This document shows, piece by piece, positions 1,795 to 35,608 of a DNA stretch of 35,835 nt. The stretch comes from a virus (lineage: Duplodnaviria; Caudoviricetes): the IMG/VR virus record IMGVR_UViG_3300019765_000012, positions 1 through 35,835 of that record, one strand, 5' to 3'. The translations under genes and the position numbers were made by a program. Position 1 is the first letter of the stretch; every line of letters starts with the position of its first letter. The notes under the pieces were generated by a model. The model was not told the DNA's origin. It saw only the letters and a program-made list of their open reading frames with translations, and searched no databases.

Positions 1795-3209
1795 ACTGGC
1801 ATGTACCTTATATCTATACTTTGATCTTGTAACGGAGCAACAGCAAATGTTAGTGTTGTTCCTGCCACAGTGTAATCACTGGGAGGTAATATTAGACCAT
1901 CTAATATTACCAGTACACTGTCAGCTGTGTGTCCACTGGCAATTGTAAAATTAACTGTGGTATTATCGCCTGTGTACTGATTGCTTGAATATGTCAAACT
2001 AAGTTTGGCATTTGTAATTGTTCCGTCACCTACAGTTGTTACATTTGCAGGCAATCCCAAATAACGTATGTATATTCTAGCATTTAGTGCAGGAGCACCT
2101 GTAAATGTCAGTGTAGTTGAACTAGTAGTGTAGTTGATTGCTGGTTCTTGCACAATGTTGTCTACTAAAACTAACAGTGCTTGTGCTGTTCCTGGGTCAT
2201 GGGACAGTGCATAATCAACTGTATTACCATCTCCTGTGTATGTATCGTTTACATAAAATCCTGTTTGAAGATTAGCAGTACCAATATATCCAAATTCAAA
2301 CTGGCTGTTAGCAGTTGAATAAAACAGTATCTCACCGTCCAGTGCAGGGCCTGCTTCTACATCTGCTAGCGCAGTGATATTTGTTGTGGCAATTCTTGTA
2401 TCAAAGCTAGTTTCAAATTCTGCTTGACTAAAACTTTCACCTGCTTCGAATCTACTCTGTGCTGCATTCCATATTATGGTTTGTCCGTCTGTGGGAGGCG
2501 TACTAAAGTCGACATCTGAAAAACTATCCAGCGTATCTGCTGTGTCTAACAGTCTATCTGTATTAAAGTAGGGCTGTTTATTGAATTGCCAAGCATCCAG
2601 TGCATTATCATATATTAGTGTAGCATTAGCACCATCAATTGTGATTCCTGCACCATCTGCTGCAACTGAATCTGCTGCACCACTAGCTATAGTAATATTA
2701 AGGTCGTCTACGCTGAGTTCGGTACTATTTATAGTGGTTGTTGTGCCGTTAACGACAAGATTACCCGTTACTGTTAAATCATTGCCAATTGTAACATCAC
2801 TGGGAAGTCCAACAGTCACAGTATCAGTTGCACTTACTGCAACCTCTACTTCATTTGCAGTTCCAAGAAATGTAACAGTGTTGGTTGCGTCAATCTGCTC
2901 TGTTGTAACGCCGTCAGTGATACTAAAAATATTACTACTAAAACCACTAATTGTCAAGGTATTTGCTAAATCATCATAATTTAAAGTTATGTTGTTTCCT
3001 GCTTGCAACAGTTGACTAACTCTGTCATCTATGTTTTCAGGACTTTGGTAGAGATTGACAGCACCTTCTGTGATATCATCACTGTCAAATGCAGTGTTGA
3101 CTCTGATTAATGCTTCCCAAATACCAGCCGTGCTGTTATACTTCCAGCCTCTGCCCAAGGCTTGATAGATATCACCATCTGCGGGATTATTTGGAAAGTT
3201 CAGTGCCAT
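1791..3209 (-). CDS. Fibre-like virion structural protein (472 aa)
   Basis: MALNFPNNP N-terminus, TTINSTELSVDDLNITIASGAAD module, two C-terminal YTGDxxT...LVxxDxxxxxP...YT...TLTFxxAP repeats. Confidence 0.75.
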   Translation of the reverse strand: MALNFPNNPADGDIYQALGRGWKYNSTAGIWEALIRVNTAFDSDDITEGAVNLYQSPENIDDRVSQLLQAGNNITLNYDDLANTLTISGFSSNIFSITDGVTTEQIDATNTVTFLGTANEVEVAVSATDTVTVGLPSDVTIGNDLTVTGNLVVNGTTTTINSTELSVDDLNITIASGAADSVAADGAGITIDGANATLIYDNALDAWQFNKQPYFNTDRLLDTADTLDSFSDVDFSTPPTDGQTIIWNAAQSRFEAGESFSQAEFETSFDTRIATTNITALADVEAGPALDGEILFYSTANSQFEFGYIGTANLQTGFYVNDTYTGDGNTVDYALSHDPGTAQALLVLVDNIVQEPAINYTTSSTTLTFTGAPALNARIYIRYLGLPANVTTVGDGTITNAKLSLTYSSNQYTGDNTTVNFTIASGHTADSVLVILDGLILPPSDYTVAGTTLTFAVAPLQDQSIDIRYMPV

Positions 3210-3234
3210 ATGTGTATCCTAGTCTACTTACACA

Positions 3235-3242
3235 TATTTATA
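3235..3242 (-). promoter_or_regulatory. T4-type late promoter TATAAATA
   Basis: Exact T4 gp55 consensus, intergenic, ~25 nt upstream of ATG 3209. Confidence 0.75.
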
Positions 3243-3243
3243 C

Positions 3244-5940
3244 TTATCTCTTGTGCTGAGTGACAAGTTGTGGAGCACCTGACGTAGAACCGTTTGCTAT
3301 AACAGCTCTATTGCTGTTTGCAGCAACAGGTGCTGGAAAATTGTTACTCATTTTAGTAGTATAATCTGGGCTTGCTGTAATACCGCCAACAAACTTAGCA
3401 GTATCATAAACATACAATGCAGCTTGAGAAGTCAAATTGTCTTGTTGTGCTATAAATGCGTATCTTCCATCTGCGGATAATGCAACACCCTGACCAAAAA
3501 ATCCTTGATTTATTGGATTTGGTGTATCAATGTTGTAAAAGTAACTACCTGTAGTTAAACTACCAAGATATGCTCTTCCTGCTTGAGTTAAGCCACCACT
3601 AGTTTCATTATAACTACCTATTAGTACATGACCAGCAGTTTCTGATATTGCAATCTGTTGTTGATTCCCCCGTGTAAAAAAAGAAGTTTGGGTTGGATTT
3701 TGAAACTCCCAAGTGTATGCCGGAGAACTTCCTACTGCACCAAATGTACTTTTGTCCCAAACATAAACTGCACCTTCGTATGTTTTAGGATTGTCTTCTG
3801 CCCCAGGTATACCTACTGCAATCCATTTGCCATCTATTGCAACACTGTATCCCATTCTATCAGCAGTACCACTGGGTAGATTGGGATTTGCTAGTATATA
3901 AGTTGCACTGGTGATCGAACCTGTACTAAAAGTGCTGATATCATACAAATAAGCAGCACCATGTGATCCTTGATTGGTGTGTGTAGTAGCAGGCGCACCT
4001 ACTACAAGCCAACCATTGTGTATAGCTACTTGCCATCCAAACCACGAACTGCCGCTTTGTGTTGCACCATCTGGTGCAGTTGCAAACGATTCTAATGTGT
4101 AATTTGCACTGGTAATAGTACTGCCAACACTGCCGAATGTTGTTATATCATATACATAAACACGACCGTTGGTATTGTAATCATAATCGCCTATAGCAAT
4201 ATAGTTTCCATCTACAGCAACACCAGTACCAAAACCTGTAGAAGATGGAACTGGATTTTGCAAGGTATACAGCAAATCTCCAGATAGATTAAAAACATAA
4301 GCTACACCTGCGCCTGCACCTCCTAAATCTTCTCCTGTCGCACTAACAACAACATAGTTTTCACTCATATCTAGGTTACGACCAAAATAATCAGTTGGAT
4401 CTGATGGTTCAATATCAGGATTGCTTATTGTAAGTTCTACACTCCAAGGCAACGGAACATATGGTAGTGTATCAGTCTCAAAATGATAATTATACCCAAA
4501 GCCTGAAATTTGATTTGCAAGGCTTAAAGAAGTGTTGGCACTGGCTGTAGATGTGATACCACTAGTCAGTGGATTAGCAGCCCCAACACTATTAGAACTA
4601 AAAGTATAGAAGTATGTGGTTTGGGTATTTAACTGTGTTAAATTCCTTGCTGTGTGTATTGTATATGTTGCACCATCATAGTCATATGTGATATTAGCAG
4701 CAACGTTATCCCATACAGCATCATAATCTAATTTTATCAAGTGAACACCTGATGTGCTGTCTCCTAACAAATAGACATTTCCTTGATAATCAAAGTGCAT
4801 TACCATTAGCATTGCTTCAGGTACTTCAATATATGTAAAATCTCTATCCATGCTGCTAACACTAAGATCACTTTTAAAAGGCATGATAACTTGCATGTAT
4901 TTGCTATTGATTATATCATTGTTGAGTGCATAACACCATCTAAGTTCATCAACTGTTGCTTTATTATCTTTGCGTTGTGCAAAAGTACTAGGATAAACAG
5001 CATCGCCCGCTGCAGATCCGCTATAAGGAGTATTAACACTATACGTCATTCGCCTAAGATCGTTGGTGGAAAGGTCTCTGTCATTTATTACTCCAAAGTA
5101 TTGAGTGTTGTTGCTTGCTTGTATATCAAATATTACCCTGTCGCCTGTTTGACCTACAAACAAACAATGATTACAGAAACTAGATGCACTTGTGCTTCCT
5201 CCCCACACACTATAAGGAGAACTGCCGTACACAGTTGTTAGTTCCAGTCTATCTGCGCCATTGCCATTGTTGAATGATGCAATTATAAATCCATCAGTTT
5301 CATTTCCCCCAATAGTAAGCGGACGTCGACTGTAGCCACTGAATGAGGTGCCAACATTTGTGAGTGAAGTATTTGGAATAATTACTGAACTTACAATTGA
5401 TCCTGTGCTGGTATTGAATTTAGCAACAAACATTTCATTATTGGTTTGATCATGTGCAGGAAGAAAAAAACTATCATCTGAAACACAGCCGCCAAGAGTA
5501 TGTCCGCCGTTGGCAGCTTGAAATCCACTCCCGTACTCTATATTTCCGCCTAATTCAATTTGATCTACAATAGAACCGTCATCTGCTACCAACATTAGAT
5601 AAGTATCTCCTGCTGATCCCGGATTACTATTTTTAGAATATATATAAAATCCATCTGTAACAGGATCATGATAAATTTCTGCTGTTTTGCCACTACCTAA
5701 ATGACTGTAGGTTCTTTTTTCAAGTATATCTCCTGTTTTGTCCAGTAGTACTAATAAAAACTCATTGTTGGGATACAGTCGAAGATGAAGTGCAATTATA
5801 CCTTTGCGATTGACAGCCAACGAACTACCAGCACTCATGGTATAATCGCCGCTAGCATCATGCACACCCATAAAAAAACTGCTATTAGGTAGTCCTTGTA
5901 CTCTGCTGATTACGGATGCTAGTTGACTAAAACGTGCCAT
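3244..5940 (-). CDS. Putative adhesin with C-terminal FG-GAP-type beta-propeller (898 aa)
   Basis: Repeats DYFGRNLDMSENYVVVSA, GFGTGVAVDGNYIAIG, WFGWQVAIHNGWLVVGAP, RMGYSVAIDGKWIAVGIP, FFGQGVALSADG, followed by G-x-[AV]-Y-[VL]-[FYW]-like strands. Confidence 0.75.
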   Translation of the reverse strand: MARFSQLASVISRVQGLPNSSFFMGVHDASGDYTMSAGSSLAVNRKGIIALHLRLYPNNEFLLVLLDKTGDILEKRTYSHLGSGKTAEIYHDPVTDGFYIYSKNSNPGSAGDTYLMLVADDGSIVDQIELGGNIEYGSGFQAANGGHTLGGCVSDDSFFLPAHDQTNNEMFVAKFNTSTGSIVSSVIIPNTSLTNVGTSFSGYSRRPLTIGGNETDGFIIASFNNGNGADRLELTTVYGSSPYSVWGGSTSASSFCNHCLFVGQTGDRVIFDIQASNNTQYFGVINDRDLSTNDLRRMTYSVNTPYSGSAAGDAVYPSTFAQRKDNKATVDELRWCYALNNDIINSKYMQVIMPFKSDLSVSSMDRDFTYIEVPEAMLMVMHFDYQGNVYLLGDSTSGVHLIKLDYDAVWDNVAANITYDYDGATYTIHTARNLTQLNTQTTYFYTFSSNSVGAANPLTSGITSTASANTSLSLANQISGFGYNYHFETDTLPYVPLPWSVELTISNPDIEPSDPTDYFGRNLDMSENYVVVSATGEDLGGAGAGVAYVFNLSGDLLYTLQNPVPSSTGFGTGVAVDGNYIAIGDYDYNTNGRVYVYDITTFGSVGSTITSANYTLESFATAPDGATQSGSSWFGWQVAIHNGWLVVGAPATTHTNQGSHGAAYLYDISTFSTGSITSATYILANPNLPSGTADRMGYSVAIDGKWIAVGIPGAEDNPKTYEGAVYVWDKSTFGAVGSSPAYTWEFQNPTQTSFFTRGNQQQIAISETAGHVLIGSYNETSGGLTQAGRAYLGSLTTGSYFYNIDTPNPINQGFFGQGVALSADGRYAFIAQQDNLTSQAALYVYDTAKFVGGITASPDYTTKMSNNFPAPVAANSNRAVIANGSTSGAPQLVTQHKR

Positions 5941-33654: not shown

Positions 33655-34530
33655 ATGTCAAATAATCCACTAGCAAATTTCTATCGAAATAAAGAAATAT
33701 ATGTCAAATTGCCCACACAAGGCAAATGGTACAAAAATCCTCCCAAGCTAACAGAGGATGGTGAAATTGGAGTGTATCCCATGACACTGCAAGATGAAAT
33801 TCGCATGAACATTCCAGACAGTTTGTACAACGGTGAAAGTTTGTTTGAGCTTTTTCAAAGCATTTGTCCTGACATCATCGATCCCTATGAAATTGCTATG
33901 CCAGATGTAGATGTACTGCTACTAGCCAGTAGAGCTGCAACCTACAACAAAAAAATGACAATCGAAACACAGTGTACTCACTGTGAGATGTGGCAAAACT
34001 ATGATTTAGATCTTGCACAAATACTCAGCAAAGTCCAAATACATTTAGAAAGATCACCTGTTGAAATTGACGGTTTGCAAATAATGATCAAACCCAATAC
34101 ACTAAAAAGTATTGCAGCAAACACATTAAAAACTGTAGAAGTTGCTAAAATGCTCAGTGCAATCAGCAATGAAAGTGTAGTGCCTGAAAGTCTAAATAGT
34201 ACTTACAAAGAAAGTATTGAGATAAGCACCGCAGCTACAATTGCAATACTAGCAGACGCAATTGAATATGTACAAATACCCAATGGAGAAACTGTAACAG
34301 AAATTGAACACATCATTGAATGGTTACAAAACAGTAACAGAGGAATAATACAAAAACTCAGCGACGAATGCGAAACAATGAATCAAAATGGATTGGAAAA
34401 CAAATTTACATTTACGTGTGCTAGCGAAGATTGTAACAAAACATTTGAAGGTAAAGTAGAGTTTAATCCTAGTTTTTTTTTCGACAACAGATCCATAGAG
34501 CAGAGACTGCAGAACGTATCCAACAAATAG
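33655..34530 (+). CDS. gp26: Baseplate hub assembly protein, T4 gp26-like (291 aa)
   Basis: YVKLPTQG...YPMTLQDE...DVDVLLLASRAATY, CTHC and CxxxxC zinc-type motifs, near-terminal SFFF. Confidence 0.75.
   Translation: MSNNPLANFYRNKEIYVKLPTQGKWYKNPPKLTEDGEIGVYPMTLQDEIRMNIPDSLYNGESLFELFQSICPDIIDPYEIAMPDVDVLLLASRAATYNKKMTIETQCTHCEMWQNYDLDLAQILSKVQIHLERSPVEIDGLQIMIKPNTLKSIAANTLKTVEVAKMLSAISNESVVPESLNSTYKESIEISTAATIAILADAIEYVQIPNGETVTEIEHIIEWLQNSNRGIIQKLSDECETMNQNGLENKFTFTCASEDCNKTFEGKVEFNPSFFFDNRSIEQRLQNVSNK
34473..34482 (+). other. Candidate -1 programmed frameshift site (T TTT TTT / T TTT TTC)
   Basis: Slippery heptamers are correctly phased in the gp26-like frame; the -1 frame opens at 34473 and runs without a stop into the 65-aa ORF. 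Confidence 0.6.
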
Positions 34531-34538
34531 TTGAAGAA

Positions 34539-34736
34539 ATGGACAATCAGCGCAAACAGTATAGAACTATTGTGAATCAATTAGCACTATATTCGAACGG
34601 AAGTTACACAGTTCAAGACATGTACAACATGACGTTTCCTCAACTAGAAGAAATCCAGGATGTGATGAAACAGAAAATCGAAGCAGAAAAGCAAGCATAT
34701 GAAACTGCAAGAGGAACTAATCGTAAAACATTTTAA
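34539..34736 (+). CDS. Small gp51-like hub assembly ORF, possibly the frameshift extension of the gp26-like gene
   Basis: LALYSNGSYTVQDMYNMTFPQLE pattern and its position; frame is open from 34473; no clear Shine-Dalgarno. Confidence 0.65.
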   Translation: MDNQRKQYRTIVNQLALYSNGSYTVQDMYNMTFPQLEEIQDVMKQKIEAEKQAYETARGTNRKTF

Positions 34737-34821
34737 TGTTTCTTCGAAGAGCTAACGCTCATCGTCAAACTCATTTCATTTCGTTTGATATTTCTTTCTT
34801 TGAATAATTATTTTTAATGAT

Positions 34822-35132
34822 TACGTTATTACCCTGTTTTCAGTCGCACTTAGCCTGTTTACGGCCAAGTGCAAAAAAAAAGCTAAGGTCATTACCCCGC
34901 TCCCAAGCGCACCGTTATTAGCGAAACCATATAGGCAGAGGCGGTTGTGCTCGACCCCTTTACTCGCCGCTTTCAACGCAGGCTACTAAATCGCAAATAA
35001 CGGCAACTGATCTAGTAATACCCGTGGGTTGTAATAGCTCAACAGAGCCCACTCTTTTGGTTCATGTGCCTCAGCAAGATCCGACGGTGCGAAAGGTCGC
35101 ACAGACTCAATGCTTATAATTGAGAGGCTATG
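34822..35132 (-). ncRNA. Candidate structured RNA of unrecognised family
   Basis: No long ORF; about 51% GC by hand count over 34861-35100; at least six helices and a loop pseudoknot; stem mismatches read as G-U only on the minus strand. Confidence 0.65.
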
Positions 35133-35561
35133 TTATGACTGGTGTCTAGTTAGTGATTCAACAAGTGCCTTAGATCCGCCTACACGGACATTTATGATGC
35201 CATTATAGTATTCATCTGTTAGTAATACTTGCCTGTCGAACTGTTCTTTGGCTTCTAAGTAACTTAGTTCGCCTCTGCTAGTGCAGTAGTACAGTATTTC
35301 TCTTGTAAATTTTTCAGGGCCTAGTTCTTGTACATCTGCGTTCAACGTGTCACTGCTTCCCCAATAGGTCTTCCAGTCACTTTCTTTTGTTGATCGTCTT
35401 TTGTTTTTTCTGCCTTTGAGAGGTTTTTTAGTTACTTTAAATTGAGCCAGTTTTTTGCCAATGTACTTTTTTCCGTTCGTTAGATTGGTAATGAGATATA
35501 CGAATCCAACATATTCCTCAGGTATTTGTTCAACGATTTTGCCTTGATAAGTCCATTGCAT
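35133..35561 (-). CDS. GIY-YIG endonuclease, T4 endonuclease II (DenA)-like (~142 aa)
   Basis: GFVYLITN...KKYIGKK, YWGSS, FTREIL, SYLE, YYN. ATG 35561 (MQWTYQG) preferred over TTG 35576. Confidence 0.88.
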   Translation of the reverse strand: MQWTYQGKIVEQIPEEYVGFVYLITNLTNGKKYIGKKLAQFKVTKKPLKGRKNKRRSTKESDWKTYWGSSDTLNADVQELGPEKFTREILYYCTSRGELSYLEAKEQFDRQVLLTDEYYNGIINVRVGGSKALVESLTRHQS

Positions 35562-35578
35562 GTTAGTATATAGCAATT

Positions 35579-35608
35579 ACTATATATGCCGACAAAGCGA
35601 AAAGTCAA
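35579..35608 (-). promoter_or_regulatory. Possible sigma70-type promoter for the nuclease gene
   Basis: TTGACT followed by TATATA (16-nt spacer) or TATAGT (18-nt spacer); same GGTTGAC context as the portal promoter. Confidence 0.45.

What the first reader, a model, noticed from the sequence alone, without database searches (positions are those of the whole stretch)
34822..35561. Pseudoknotted ~310-nt RNA starting right after a GIY-YIG nuclease stop codon: possible nuclease-RNA system
Seen: this is the largest intergenic gap, ~51% GC while other gaps are very AT-rich. Minus-strand helices: 35106-35124 (CUCAAU/AUUGAG) and 35087-35102 (GUGCGA/UCGCAC), both enclosed by CAUAGCCU...AGGCACAUG (35063-35132); bulged stem 35024-35052; 9-bp stem UACUAGAUC/GAUUUAGUA (35009-35017 with 34984-34992), whose loop GCCGUUAUU is complementary to AAUAACGGU at 34911-34919 (pseudoknot); 10-bp hairpin 34846-34872. 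Three separate positions are G-U on the minus strand but A-C on the plus strand, which indicates the RNA strand. GGGUAAU(G/A)AC flanks the last hairpin on both sides. Known: TnpB and IscB nucleases use adjacent structured RNAs, and large phages carry big ncRNAs such as GOLLD and ROOL. Inference: it is co-transcribed with the nuclease and could be an RNP partner or guide scaffold, a ribozyme, or an origin/primer RNA. I cannot assign a family, and the link to the nuclease rests on adjacency only.
Basis: partly seen in the sequence, partly recalled or inferred. Interest (0 to 1): 0.82.

Follow-up and report, generated by a model that had tools for sequence, protein, structure and literature searches.

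The report
Jumbo-phage pseudoknotted RNA, likely replication origin
The sequence after this phage nuclease gene keeps a conserved, doubly knotted RNA-type fold that is a variant of a motif catalogued in 2010 and also occurs without this nuclease; it likely pairs with its own DNA to prime copying of the giant phage genome.

Summary
The fold is real. It is not wholly new: its core is the 3' half of Weinberg's 2010 Polynucleobacter-1 alignment, which Rfam's 141-nt model omits. The 5' domain differs. The nuclease partnership is not supported. The element follows an unrelated resolvase-like gene in 17 loci, RNA types are swapped among near-identical nucleases, and the Melnitz clade has the nuclease without the RNA. 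The element ends in two repeats that change together, followed by AT-rich DNA with primase-origin-type mini-hairpins. Cultured enterobacterial jumbo phages hold a similarly built element in this slot plus 3-4 same-strand copies elsewhere. Best reading, about 50%: an RNA-primed (R-loop) replication origin. No skew switch supports this, and transcription is only hinted at. The scan found this family before on other DNA, and I took the Polynucleobacter-1 and origin leads from those notes.

The parts
35579..35608 (-). sigma70-like promoter (TTGACT-18-TATAGT) upstream of the nuclease gene; predicted
   Evidence: 10 of 12 consensus matches; 6 sites found against 3.5 expected, so weak on its own
35133..35561 (-). 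142-aa stand-alone GIY-YIG nuclease (PF19835, PHROG 447); replaceable neighbour, likely a branched-DNA nuclease
   Evidence: model pLDDT 94; best fold match I-TevI catalytic domain Z 8.3, rmsd 2.7, 82 aligned
34825..35132 (-). whole structured element (class A variant); true transcript ends not mapped
35064..35132 (-). 5' domain: closing stem 35128-35124/35072-35068, bulged stem, variable hairpin; stands where Polynucleobacter-1 RNAs have the Rfam-modelled domain
   Evidence: a similar 5' domain is seen by eye on other cores, e.g. L440
35024..35052 (-). hairpin with internal loop (P4)
   Evidence: helices 1-2: 5 of 8 pairs change on both sides
34980..35023 (-). stem P5, whose loop (35004-34996) forms pseudoknot 1 with 34919-34911
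   Evidence: helices 3-6; same pseudoknot in Weinberg's SS_cons_1
34911..34979 (-). core junction: kissing loop GUUG 34977-34974/CAAC 34947-34944, outer stem 34968-34965/34923-34920, GGGG/CCUC stem, variable hairpin, 3' strand of pseudoknot 1
   Evidence: helices 7-11; same pairs covary in 87 Polynucleobacter-1-type loci
34873..34904 (-). box 1 (GGGTAATGAC, 34897-34888) in a weak hairpin followed by a run of 9 U; possible pause or termination point
   Evidence: T run of 6 or more in 31 of 41 class-A modules; not called by the terminator scan
34846..34872 (-). last hairpin, between the twin boxes
   Evidence: 12 pairs, 100% paired, only 1 with a two-sided change
34825..34834 (-). box 2 (GGGTAATAAC)
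   Evidence: boxes change together across lineages
34789..34824 (.). AT-rich spacer, candidate unwinding element
   Evidence: sequence; present in relatives
34745..34788 (-). two DNA-type hairpins: a GA/GA-tandem stem with GAA loop (34788-34765) and a GCGTTAGC mini-hairpin (34758-34751)
   Evidence: DNA fold z -3.2; conserved; retained when the RNA is swapped in L014; GCGTTAGC is named at St-1 and alpha3 primase origins in PMC13037366

Best explanation
The element is a conserved double-pseudoknotted fold, a 5'-variant of the full-length Polynucleobacter-1 RNA of jumbo phages, and it likely acts in cis as the primer transcript of an RNA-primed (R-loop) replication origin. Shown: the fold, the shared core, the twin boxes, the downstream AT-rich DNA with mini-hairpins, the fixed slot between the recombination genes and the convergent baseplate-hub gene, and independence from the GIY-YIG gene. 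Inferred steps: (1) RNA polymerase reads from the promoter before the nuclease gene through the element; (2) the folded 5' part would let the 3' part, around the boxes and U run, stay hybridised to its template; (3) an RNase H cut or a transcript end would give the 3'-OH for leading-strand synthesis; (4) the AT-rich DNA beyond would open, and its mini-hairpins would load primase or helicase; (5) the twin boxes are probably paired sites for one factor. The nuclease is likely a branched-DNA nuclease that shares the neighbourhood.
For: Mini-hairpins: C(GNA)G or GC(GNNA)GC motifs occur at 0.16-1.0 per locus per category in the first 150 nt after box 2, apart from near-zero tetraloops on the opposite strand, against at most 0.25 in the other 13 bins (37 A, 51 P1 and 51 B loci, related to each other). 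Loops such as GTTA, GATA and GTCA fit DNA better than RNA GNRA (own knowledge). The window's GCGTTAGC is the St-1/alpha3 primase-origin mini-hairpin (PMC13037366 passages). T4 oriF and oriG consist of a promoter plus an AT-rich unwinding element and form R-loops; T4 has at least 5 origins, and oriE has direct repeats (PMC3016281 passages). Two cultured jumbo phages hold a similarly built element in this slot and in 4 and 5 dispersed same-strand copies; 72 phage records match it, and those listed show 1-5 places each, mostly 4-5. In L014 the RNA is exchanged for class B while the hairpin block stays, as a replaceable cis module would. One lineage has an RNase HI gene directly before a variant element.
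Against: No replication data exist. In the 345-kb, 99% complete genome G005 the GC skew follows the coding strand and does not switch at the element. RNase HI was found in only 2 of 15 records. The genome-wide mini-hairpin scan ranks this site first in G005 only by stem length in a 2-versus-2 tie, and not first in the window. The enrichment control is mostly coding DNA. Model R1 does not detect the cultured-phage elements, so their kinship rests on architecture. Their pseudoknot-1 complement beats shuffles in only 2 of 8 parsed copies. T4 R-loop origins need no specific sequence, so this elaborate tertiary fold is more than an R-loop requires. Transcription and strand were not shown.
Confidence: 0.5

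Rival explanations
1. A trans-acting phage non-coding RNA (scaffold, decoy or RNA-only assembly like GOLLD or ROOL) whose twin boxes bind a phage or host protein other than the nuclease.
For: Two pseudoknots, invariant single-stranded motifs and exchangeable 5' domains suggest tertiary function. RNA-library contigs cover it. Box spacing varies from 47 to 67 nt, which fits a looped single strand.
Against: It does not explain the DNA-type hairpin block fixed behind three different RNA types or the dispersed same-strand copies.
Confidence: 0.25
2. A cis element for something other than priming: a 3' end-forming or stabilising structure at the convergent junction, or a packaging or recombination site read as single-stranded DNA.
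For: It sits where two transcription arms meet. It has a hairpin plus U run at box 1, and a resolvase-type gene is usually adjacent.
Against: G-U pairs and loop-loop covariation indicate RNA tertiary structure. Extra copies in cultured phages lie between same-strand genes, away from this junction.
Confidence: 0.12
3. A ribozyme that cleaves or ligates at the twin boxes.
For: A compact double-pseudoknot core, and two sites that must stay identical.
Against: No Rfam ribozyme match. No conserved internal complement to the boxes that could act as a guide.
Confidence: 0.07
4. A guide or scaffold RNA of the GIY-YIG nuclease, as in OMEGA systems.
For: Adjacency: the nuclease is upstream in 72 of 78 class-A motif loci and directly upstream in 52 of 59 Polynucleobacter-1-type loci. 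The protein has a basic hairpin and no separate DNA-binding domain.
Against: The core follows a PD-(D/E)XK resolvase-like gene in L095, L127 and in 15 of 28 resolvase loci. An unrelated ORF separates nuclease and RNA in 5 of 59 loci. RNA type is not congruent with the nuclease tree (quick tree; L014). The Melnitz clade, 76-81% identical, has no element. There is no variable guide end or sign of mobility.
Confidence: 0.05

Closest known systems
Polynucleobacter-1 RNA motif (Rfam RF01718; Weinberg et al. 2010, PMC2864571, supplementary alignment read)
   Same: Same 3' domain (hairpin, stem with pseudoknot loop, GAGG/CCUC junction, pseudoknot at the 3' end). Same position after this GIY-YIG gene and before the convergent baseplate hub. 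RF01718-positive loci share the kissing loop, twin boxes, last hairpin and mini-hairpins.
   Different: The window lacks the 141-nt domain that Rfam models and has a different 70-nt 5' domain and different boxes (GGTAAT against RGATRAW). The 2010 alignment stops before the twin-box module and does not mark the kissing loop. Its table lists the motif as probably cis-regulatory, with no function.
ColE1 RNA II preprimer origin (PMC4555960 passages)
   Same: Proposed logic: a folded transcript hybridises to its template and is cut by RNase H to prime. Downstream primosome signals are recalled, not from a call.
   Different: No sequence or structure homology was tested or seen. No antisense RNA I equivalent was looked for. 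Priming is not shown here.
T4 R-loop origins oriF and oriG, and iteron-bearing oriE (PMC3016281 passages)
   Same: A promoter, then an AT-rich unwinding element; several origins per genome; direct repeats at one origin; location near a switch of transcribed strand.
   Different: T4 R-loops need no specific sequence or RNA fold, and the T4 origins share no motif.
OMEGA omega-RNAs (IscB, TnpB), recalled
   Same: A structured RNA next to a nuclease gene.
   Different: The nuclease fold differs (GIY-YIG). There is no obligate linkage, no variable guide, and the position is fixed rather than mobile.

Membership tests
Polynucleobacter-1 RNA (RF01718) | match to the Rfam model (141-nt 5' domain) | tested here: not met
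   no hit at gathering score or E<=10
Polynucleobacter-1 RNA (RF01718) | 3' pseudoknotted domain of the original 2010 alignment | tested here: met
   same helices. A class-A-only model hits 28 of 74 motif-selected loci at the expected place at E<=1, 5 of them at E<0.01, best 1.5e-5, and none of 12 class-B or 9 other nuclease loci. The motif selection favours hits.
Polynucleobacter-1 RNA (RF01718) | same gene context and 3' twin-box module as RF01718-positive loci | tested here: met
   20 of 20 scanned loci are RF01718-positive; context; boxes
OMEGA RNA-guided nuclease systems | RuvC- or HNH-type nuclease (recalled definition) | tested here: not met
   GIY-YIG by Pfam and by fold
OMEGA RNA-guided nuclease systems | obligate RNA-nuclease linkage with a variable guide end | tested here: not met
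OMEGA RNA-guided nuclease systems | RNA-dependent DNA cleavage | not testable with these tools
   needs biochemistry
RNA-primed R-loop origins (ColE1 RNA II, T4 oriF/oriG) | upstream promoter and transcript | tested here: inconclusive
   consensus promoter; low-depth unstranded contigs
RNA-primed R-loop origins (ColE1 RNA II, T4 oriF/oriG) | AT-rich unwinding DNA and single-strand hairpin signals downstream | tested here: met
   sequence level only
RNA-primed R-loop origins (ColE1 RNA II, T4 oriF/oriG) | compositional skew switch at the site | tested here: not met
   one complete genome, G005; several same-direction origins would not give a switch
RNA-primed R-loop origins (ColE1 RNA II, T4 oriF/oriG) | persistent RNA-DNA hybrid used as primer | not testable with these tools
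   needs experiments
RNA-primed R-loop origins (ColE1 RNA II, T4 oriF/oriG) | antisense regulator such as ColE1 RNA I | not tested
   only a 9-of-12 plus-strand promoter-like site at 34785-34814 was noticed
SegE-type stand-alone GIY-YIG (PF19835, PHROG 447) | profile match and GIY-YIG fold | tested here: met
   E 1e-36, E 1e-39, fold

The most novel reading that the evidence does not exclude
A widespread jumbo-phage group starts DNA replication at a class of origin defined by a modular, double-pseudoknotted primer RNA. Swappable 5' domains and co-evolving twin boxes set lineage specificity, like plasmid incompatibility groups. The long-orphan Polynucleobacter-1 motif is one version of it, and cultured E. 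coli jumbo phages carry 4-5 testable copies.
Probability: 0.4. Interest if true: 0.8.

Novelty: new variant of a known kind. Interest (0 to 1): 0.5.

Why it matters
It ties a function-less Rfam motif to jumbo phages, extends it by a kissing loop and a twin-box module, and shows that unrelated-looking RNAs are exchanged in one genomic slot. If it is an origin, it would say how this large phage group (about 290-490 kb among the cultured relatives listed) starts replication; my two paper searches on that found nothing. Cultured relatives make it testable. It also removes a tempting candidate for a GIY-YIG RNA-guided nuclease.

Tried and rejected
Rfam: no hit on the window, on 20 nuclease loci or on 4 cultured-phage loci. 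No tRNA or tmRNA. Blastn of the window element against 50,697 phage records gave only chance 25-28-nt hits; class P1 and B elements gave none. Group I or II intron, RNase P and tmRNA hallmarks (recalled) were not seen by eye, and the flanking genes are convergent, so no gene is interrupted. No conserved internal complement to the boxes was found. GC skew of G005 was uninformative. RNA runs: 8 were laid, all as contigs; 7 have 99-100% identical pieces within or overlapping the element and X7 has none. They were selected with this stretch, carry no strand, and their ends disagree (34680-34896), so they map no RNA end. Sequence search of solved structures found nothing; Foldseek gave no E<=0.001. 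Slx1 scored only Z 3.1, so the resolvase idea rests on gene replacement, not on fold. PF19835 rang nowhere in 5 resolvase-bearing fragments or the controls, so absence is not shown. PF24608 was absent from 23 of 25 records, most of them fragments. The four PA5oct ncRNAs (PMC7318152 passages) do not map to this slot by coordinates, and the EC.P1 element did not match PA5oct. The careful nuclease tree did not finish; the quick tree was used, and 58 of 125 inner branches are open.

Full report
Setting. The window is a 35.8-kb fragment, estimated 10% complete, of a T4-like jumbo phage. Virion genes lie on the minus strand and a baseplate-hub gene on the plus strand; at the right end are a phosphomannomutase-like gene and a 142-aa GIY-YIG gene. 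The hub's closest cultured relatives are 290-490-kb phages such as Atu_ph07, PA5oct and E. coli jumbo phages, at 25-31% identity. The finding lies in the 396-nt gap between the nuclease stop and a convergent 65-aa ORF.

Observation. The quoted helices are in the sequence; GC is 48-49% rather than 51%. Alone the sequence folds only slightly better than shuffles. A 3' motif search gave 78 loci. After dropping truncated and near-identical loci, one chance match and two divergent loci, 35 sequences were aligned. On 31 distinct cores the structure pairs in 96.3% of cells, with two-sided changes in 24 of 45 pairs and 0 of 500 shuffles as high; the structure was derived from these data. A second loop-loop pairing (GUUG/CAAC, GUUU/AAAC, GUCU/AGAC) and an outer stem were new.

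Identity. Rfam finds nothing. Weinberg's 2010 supplementary alignment (PMC2864571: I read main-text passages and parts 206-207 of supplement 5) has a 3' half with the same hairpin, stem, junction and pseudoknot, whereas Rfam's model covers only 141 nt. A motif from that half retrieved 120 loci. All 20 that I scanned are RF01718-positive just upstream. They follow the same nuclease family and precede the hub, and they show the same covarying pairs, including the kissing loop. A model built only from class A hits 28 of 74 of them in register, weakly (best E 1.5e-5), and none of 12 class-B loci. So the window carries the Polynucleobacter-1 core with another 5' domain. One search for the motif name found only the 2010 paper. 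Three further searches showed, from listings alone, no paper on this element. Unread supplements may bear on this.

The 3' module. Two short direct repeats flank the last hairpin in class A, in the P1 type and in class B, a differently folded RNA found in the same slot (about 820 stored stretches estimated; covariation). The 7-nt boxes are identical within a locus in 88 of 89 parsed P1 loci (101 examined) and 102 of 103 parsed B loci (104 examined), across about ten variants each; shuffles reach at most 27 and 59. The parse required a loose consensus, and loci are related. In class A all 41 modules share a repeat, with concerted changes in L156, L096 and L095/L127. No internal complement explains them. 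Behind box 2 lie AT-rich DNA and GNA/GNNA mini-hairpins, strongly concentrated in the first 150 nt. The window's GCGTTAGC is the St-1/alpha3 primase-origin sequence named in PMC13037366 (passages).

The nuclease is a neighbour. Adjacency is common: 72 of 78 class-A loci (3 too short, 2 with another gene, 1 chance match) and 52 of 59 P1 loci. But L095 and L127 carry class A (78 bits) after a PD-(D/E)XK gene annotated as a RusA-like resolvase. Of 28 loci of that gene, 15 have the core right behind it, 9 have RNase HI followed by a B-like start, 2 have another variant, 2 were unresolved, and none has a GIY-YIG hit in the flanks. Five P1 loci have an unrelated ORF between nuclease and RNA. L014 has an 85%-identical nuclease and the class-A hairpin block but a class-B RNA. 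Melnitz and four related proteins have no element. In cultured relatives the slot holds a PDDEXK_15 gene (PA5oct) or an endonuclease VII (annotated in XaC1, weak Pfam hit in EC.P1) on the opposite strand. Replacement by two kinds of junction resolvase suggests that the GIY-YIG protein does that job; this is inference, and its fold is closest to I-TevI, not Slx1.

Cultured counterparts. EC.P1 and XaC1 hold a non-coding element of about 500 nt in this slot. It has a GUUG/CAAC loop pair with one covarying position, an outer stem, twin CGTCAA boxes round a last hairpin, and, behind the syntenic copies at least, AT-rich DNA with mini-hairpins; the EC.P1 hairpin closely resembles the window's. It occurs 4 and 5 times per genome, on one strand, mostly away from any nuclease gene that I recognised, and 72 records match it. 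My model does not detect it, and pseudoknot 1 beats shuffles in 2 of 8 parsed copies, so kinship is probable, not shown. G005 has one detectable copy.

Mechanism. A transcript ending in paired boxes, then unwindable DNA with primase-type hairpins, in one to five same-strand copies, fits an RNA-primed origin as in ColE1 (PMC4555960 passages) and T4 oriF/oriG (PMC3016281 passages). Against this: no skew switch in G005, RNase HI in only 2 of 15 records, weak genome-wide ranking of the hairpin block, and no stranded RNA data. I put the origin at 0.5, a trans-acting RNA at 0.25, another cis role at 0.12, a ribozyme at 0.07 and a nuclease guide at 0.05. The origin idea and the downstream hairpins were suggested by earlier notes; several others repeat it, which is not independent evidence.

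Verdict. A real element and a new variant of a known, function-less motif. The nuclease-RNA system is not supported. Interest 0.5.

Noticed in passing
L019-L080 and L160-L279 (class B): A different large structured RNA of about 330-450 nt with strong covariation and no Rfam match occupies the same slot and ends in the same twin-box module.
   Followed up: partly
L424:2636-3055 and 3130-3680; also L425-L431, L433: An RNase HI gene sits between the resolvase-like gene and a further RNA variant; a NUMOD3 endonuclease gene lies upstream.
   Followed up: partly
L440, L442-L445, L447, L449; L446, L448: Mosaic elements: a class-A-like 5' domain joined to a core with P1-type boxes, or to another 3' part.
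   Followed up: partly
L453:6150-6780 (PQ657772.1), L454:6980-7780 (OR258281.1): A multi-copy non-coding element of cultured enterobacterial and Xanthomonas jumbo phages, unannotated and not in Rfam.
   Followed up: partly
window 35133-35561: PHROG 447 labels this GIY-YIG family 'NAD synthetase', which looks like a misannotation. It alternates in one slot with PD-(D/E)XK and endonuclease VII resolvases.
   Followed up: partly
window 34530-34539: The hub gene ends before a T-run, and the 65-aa ORF behind it appears to begin in another frame. L014 shows the same layout, and in PA5oct no such ORF is annotated. It could be an overlapping or frameshifted gene pair.
   Followed up: no
L451:6560-8040 (PA5oct): A long, poorly annotated gap with AT-rich DNA and mini-hairpin-like sequences in the same slot; not matched by the EC.P1 element.
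   Followed up: no
window 34785-34814 (+): A weak promoter-like site (9 of 12) pointing into the element from the opposite strand; possible antisense transcript.
   Followed up: no
L291, L297, L307, L345, L349, L014: Unrelated 86-341-aa ORFs are inserted between the nuclease and the RNA, so the site accepts insertions.
   Followed up: no
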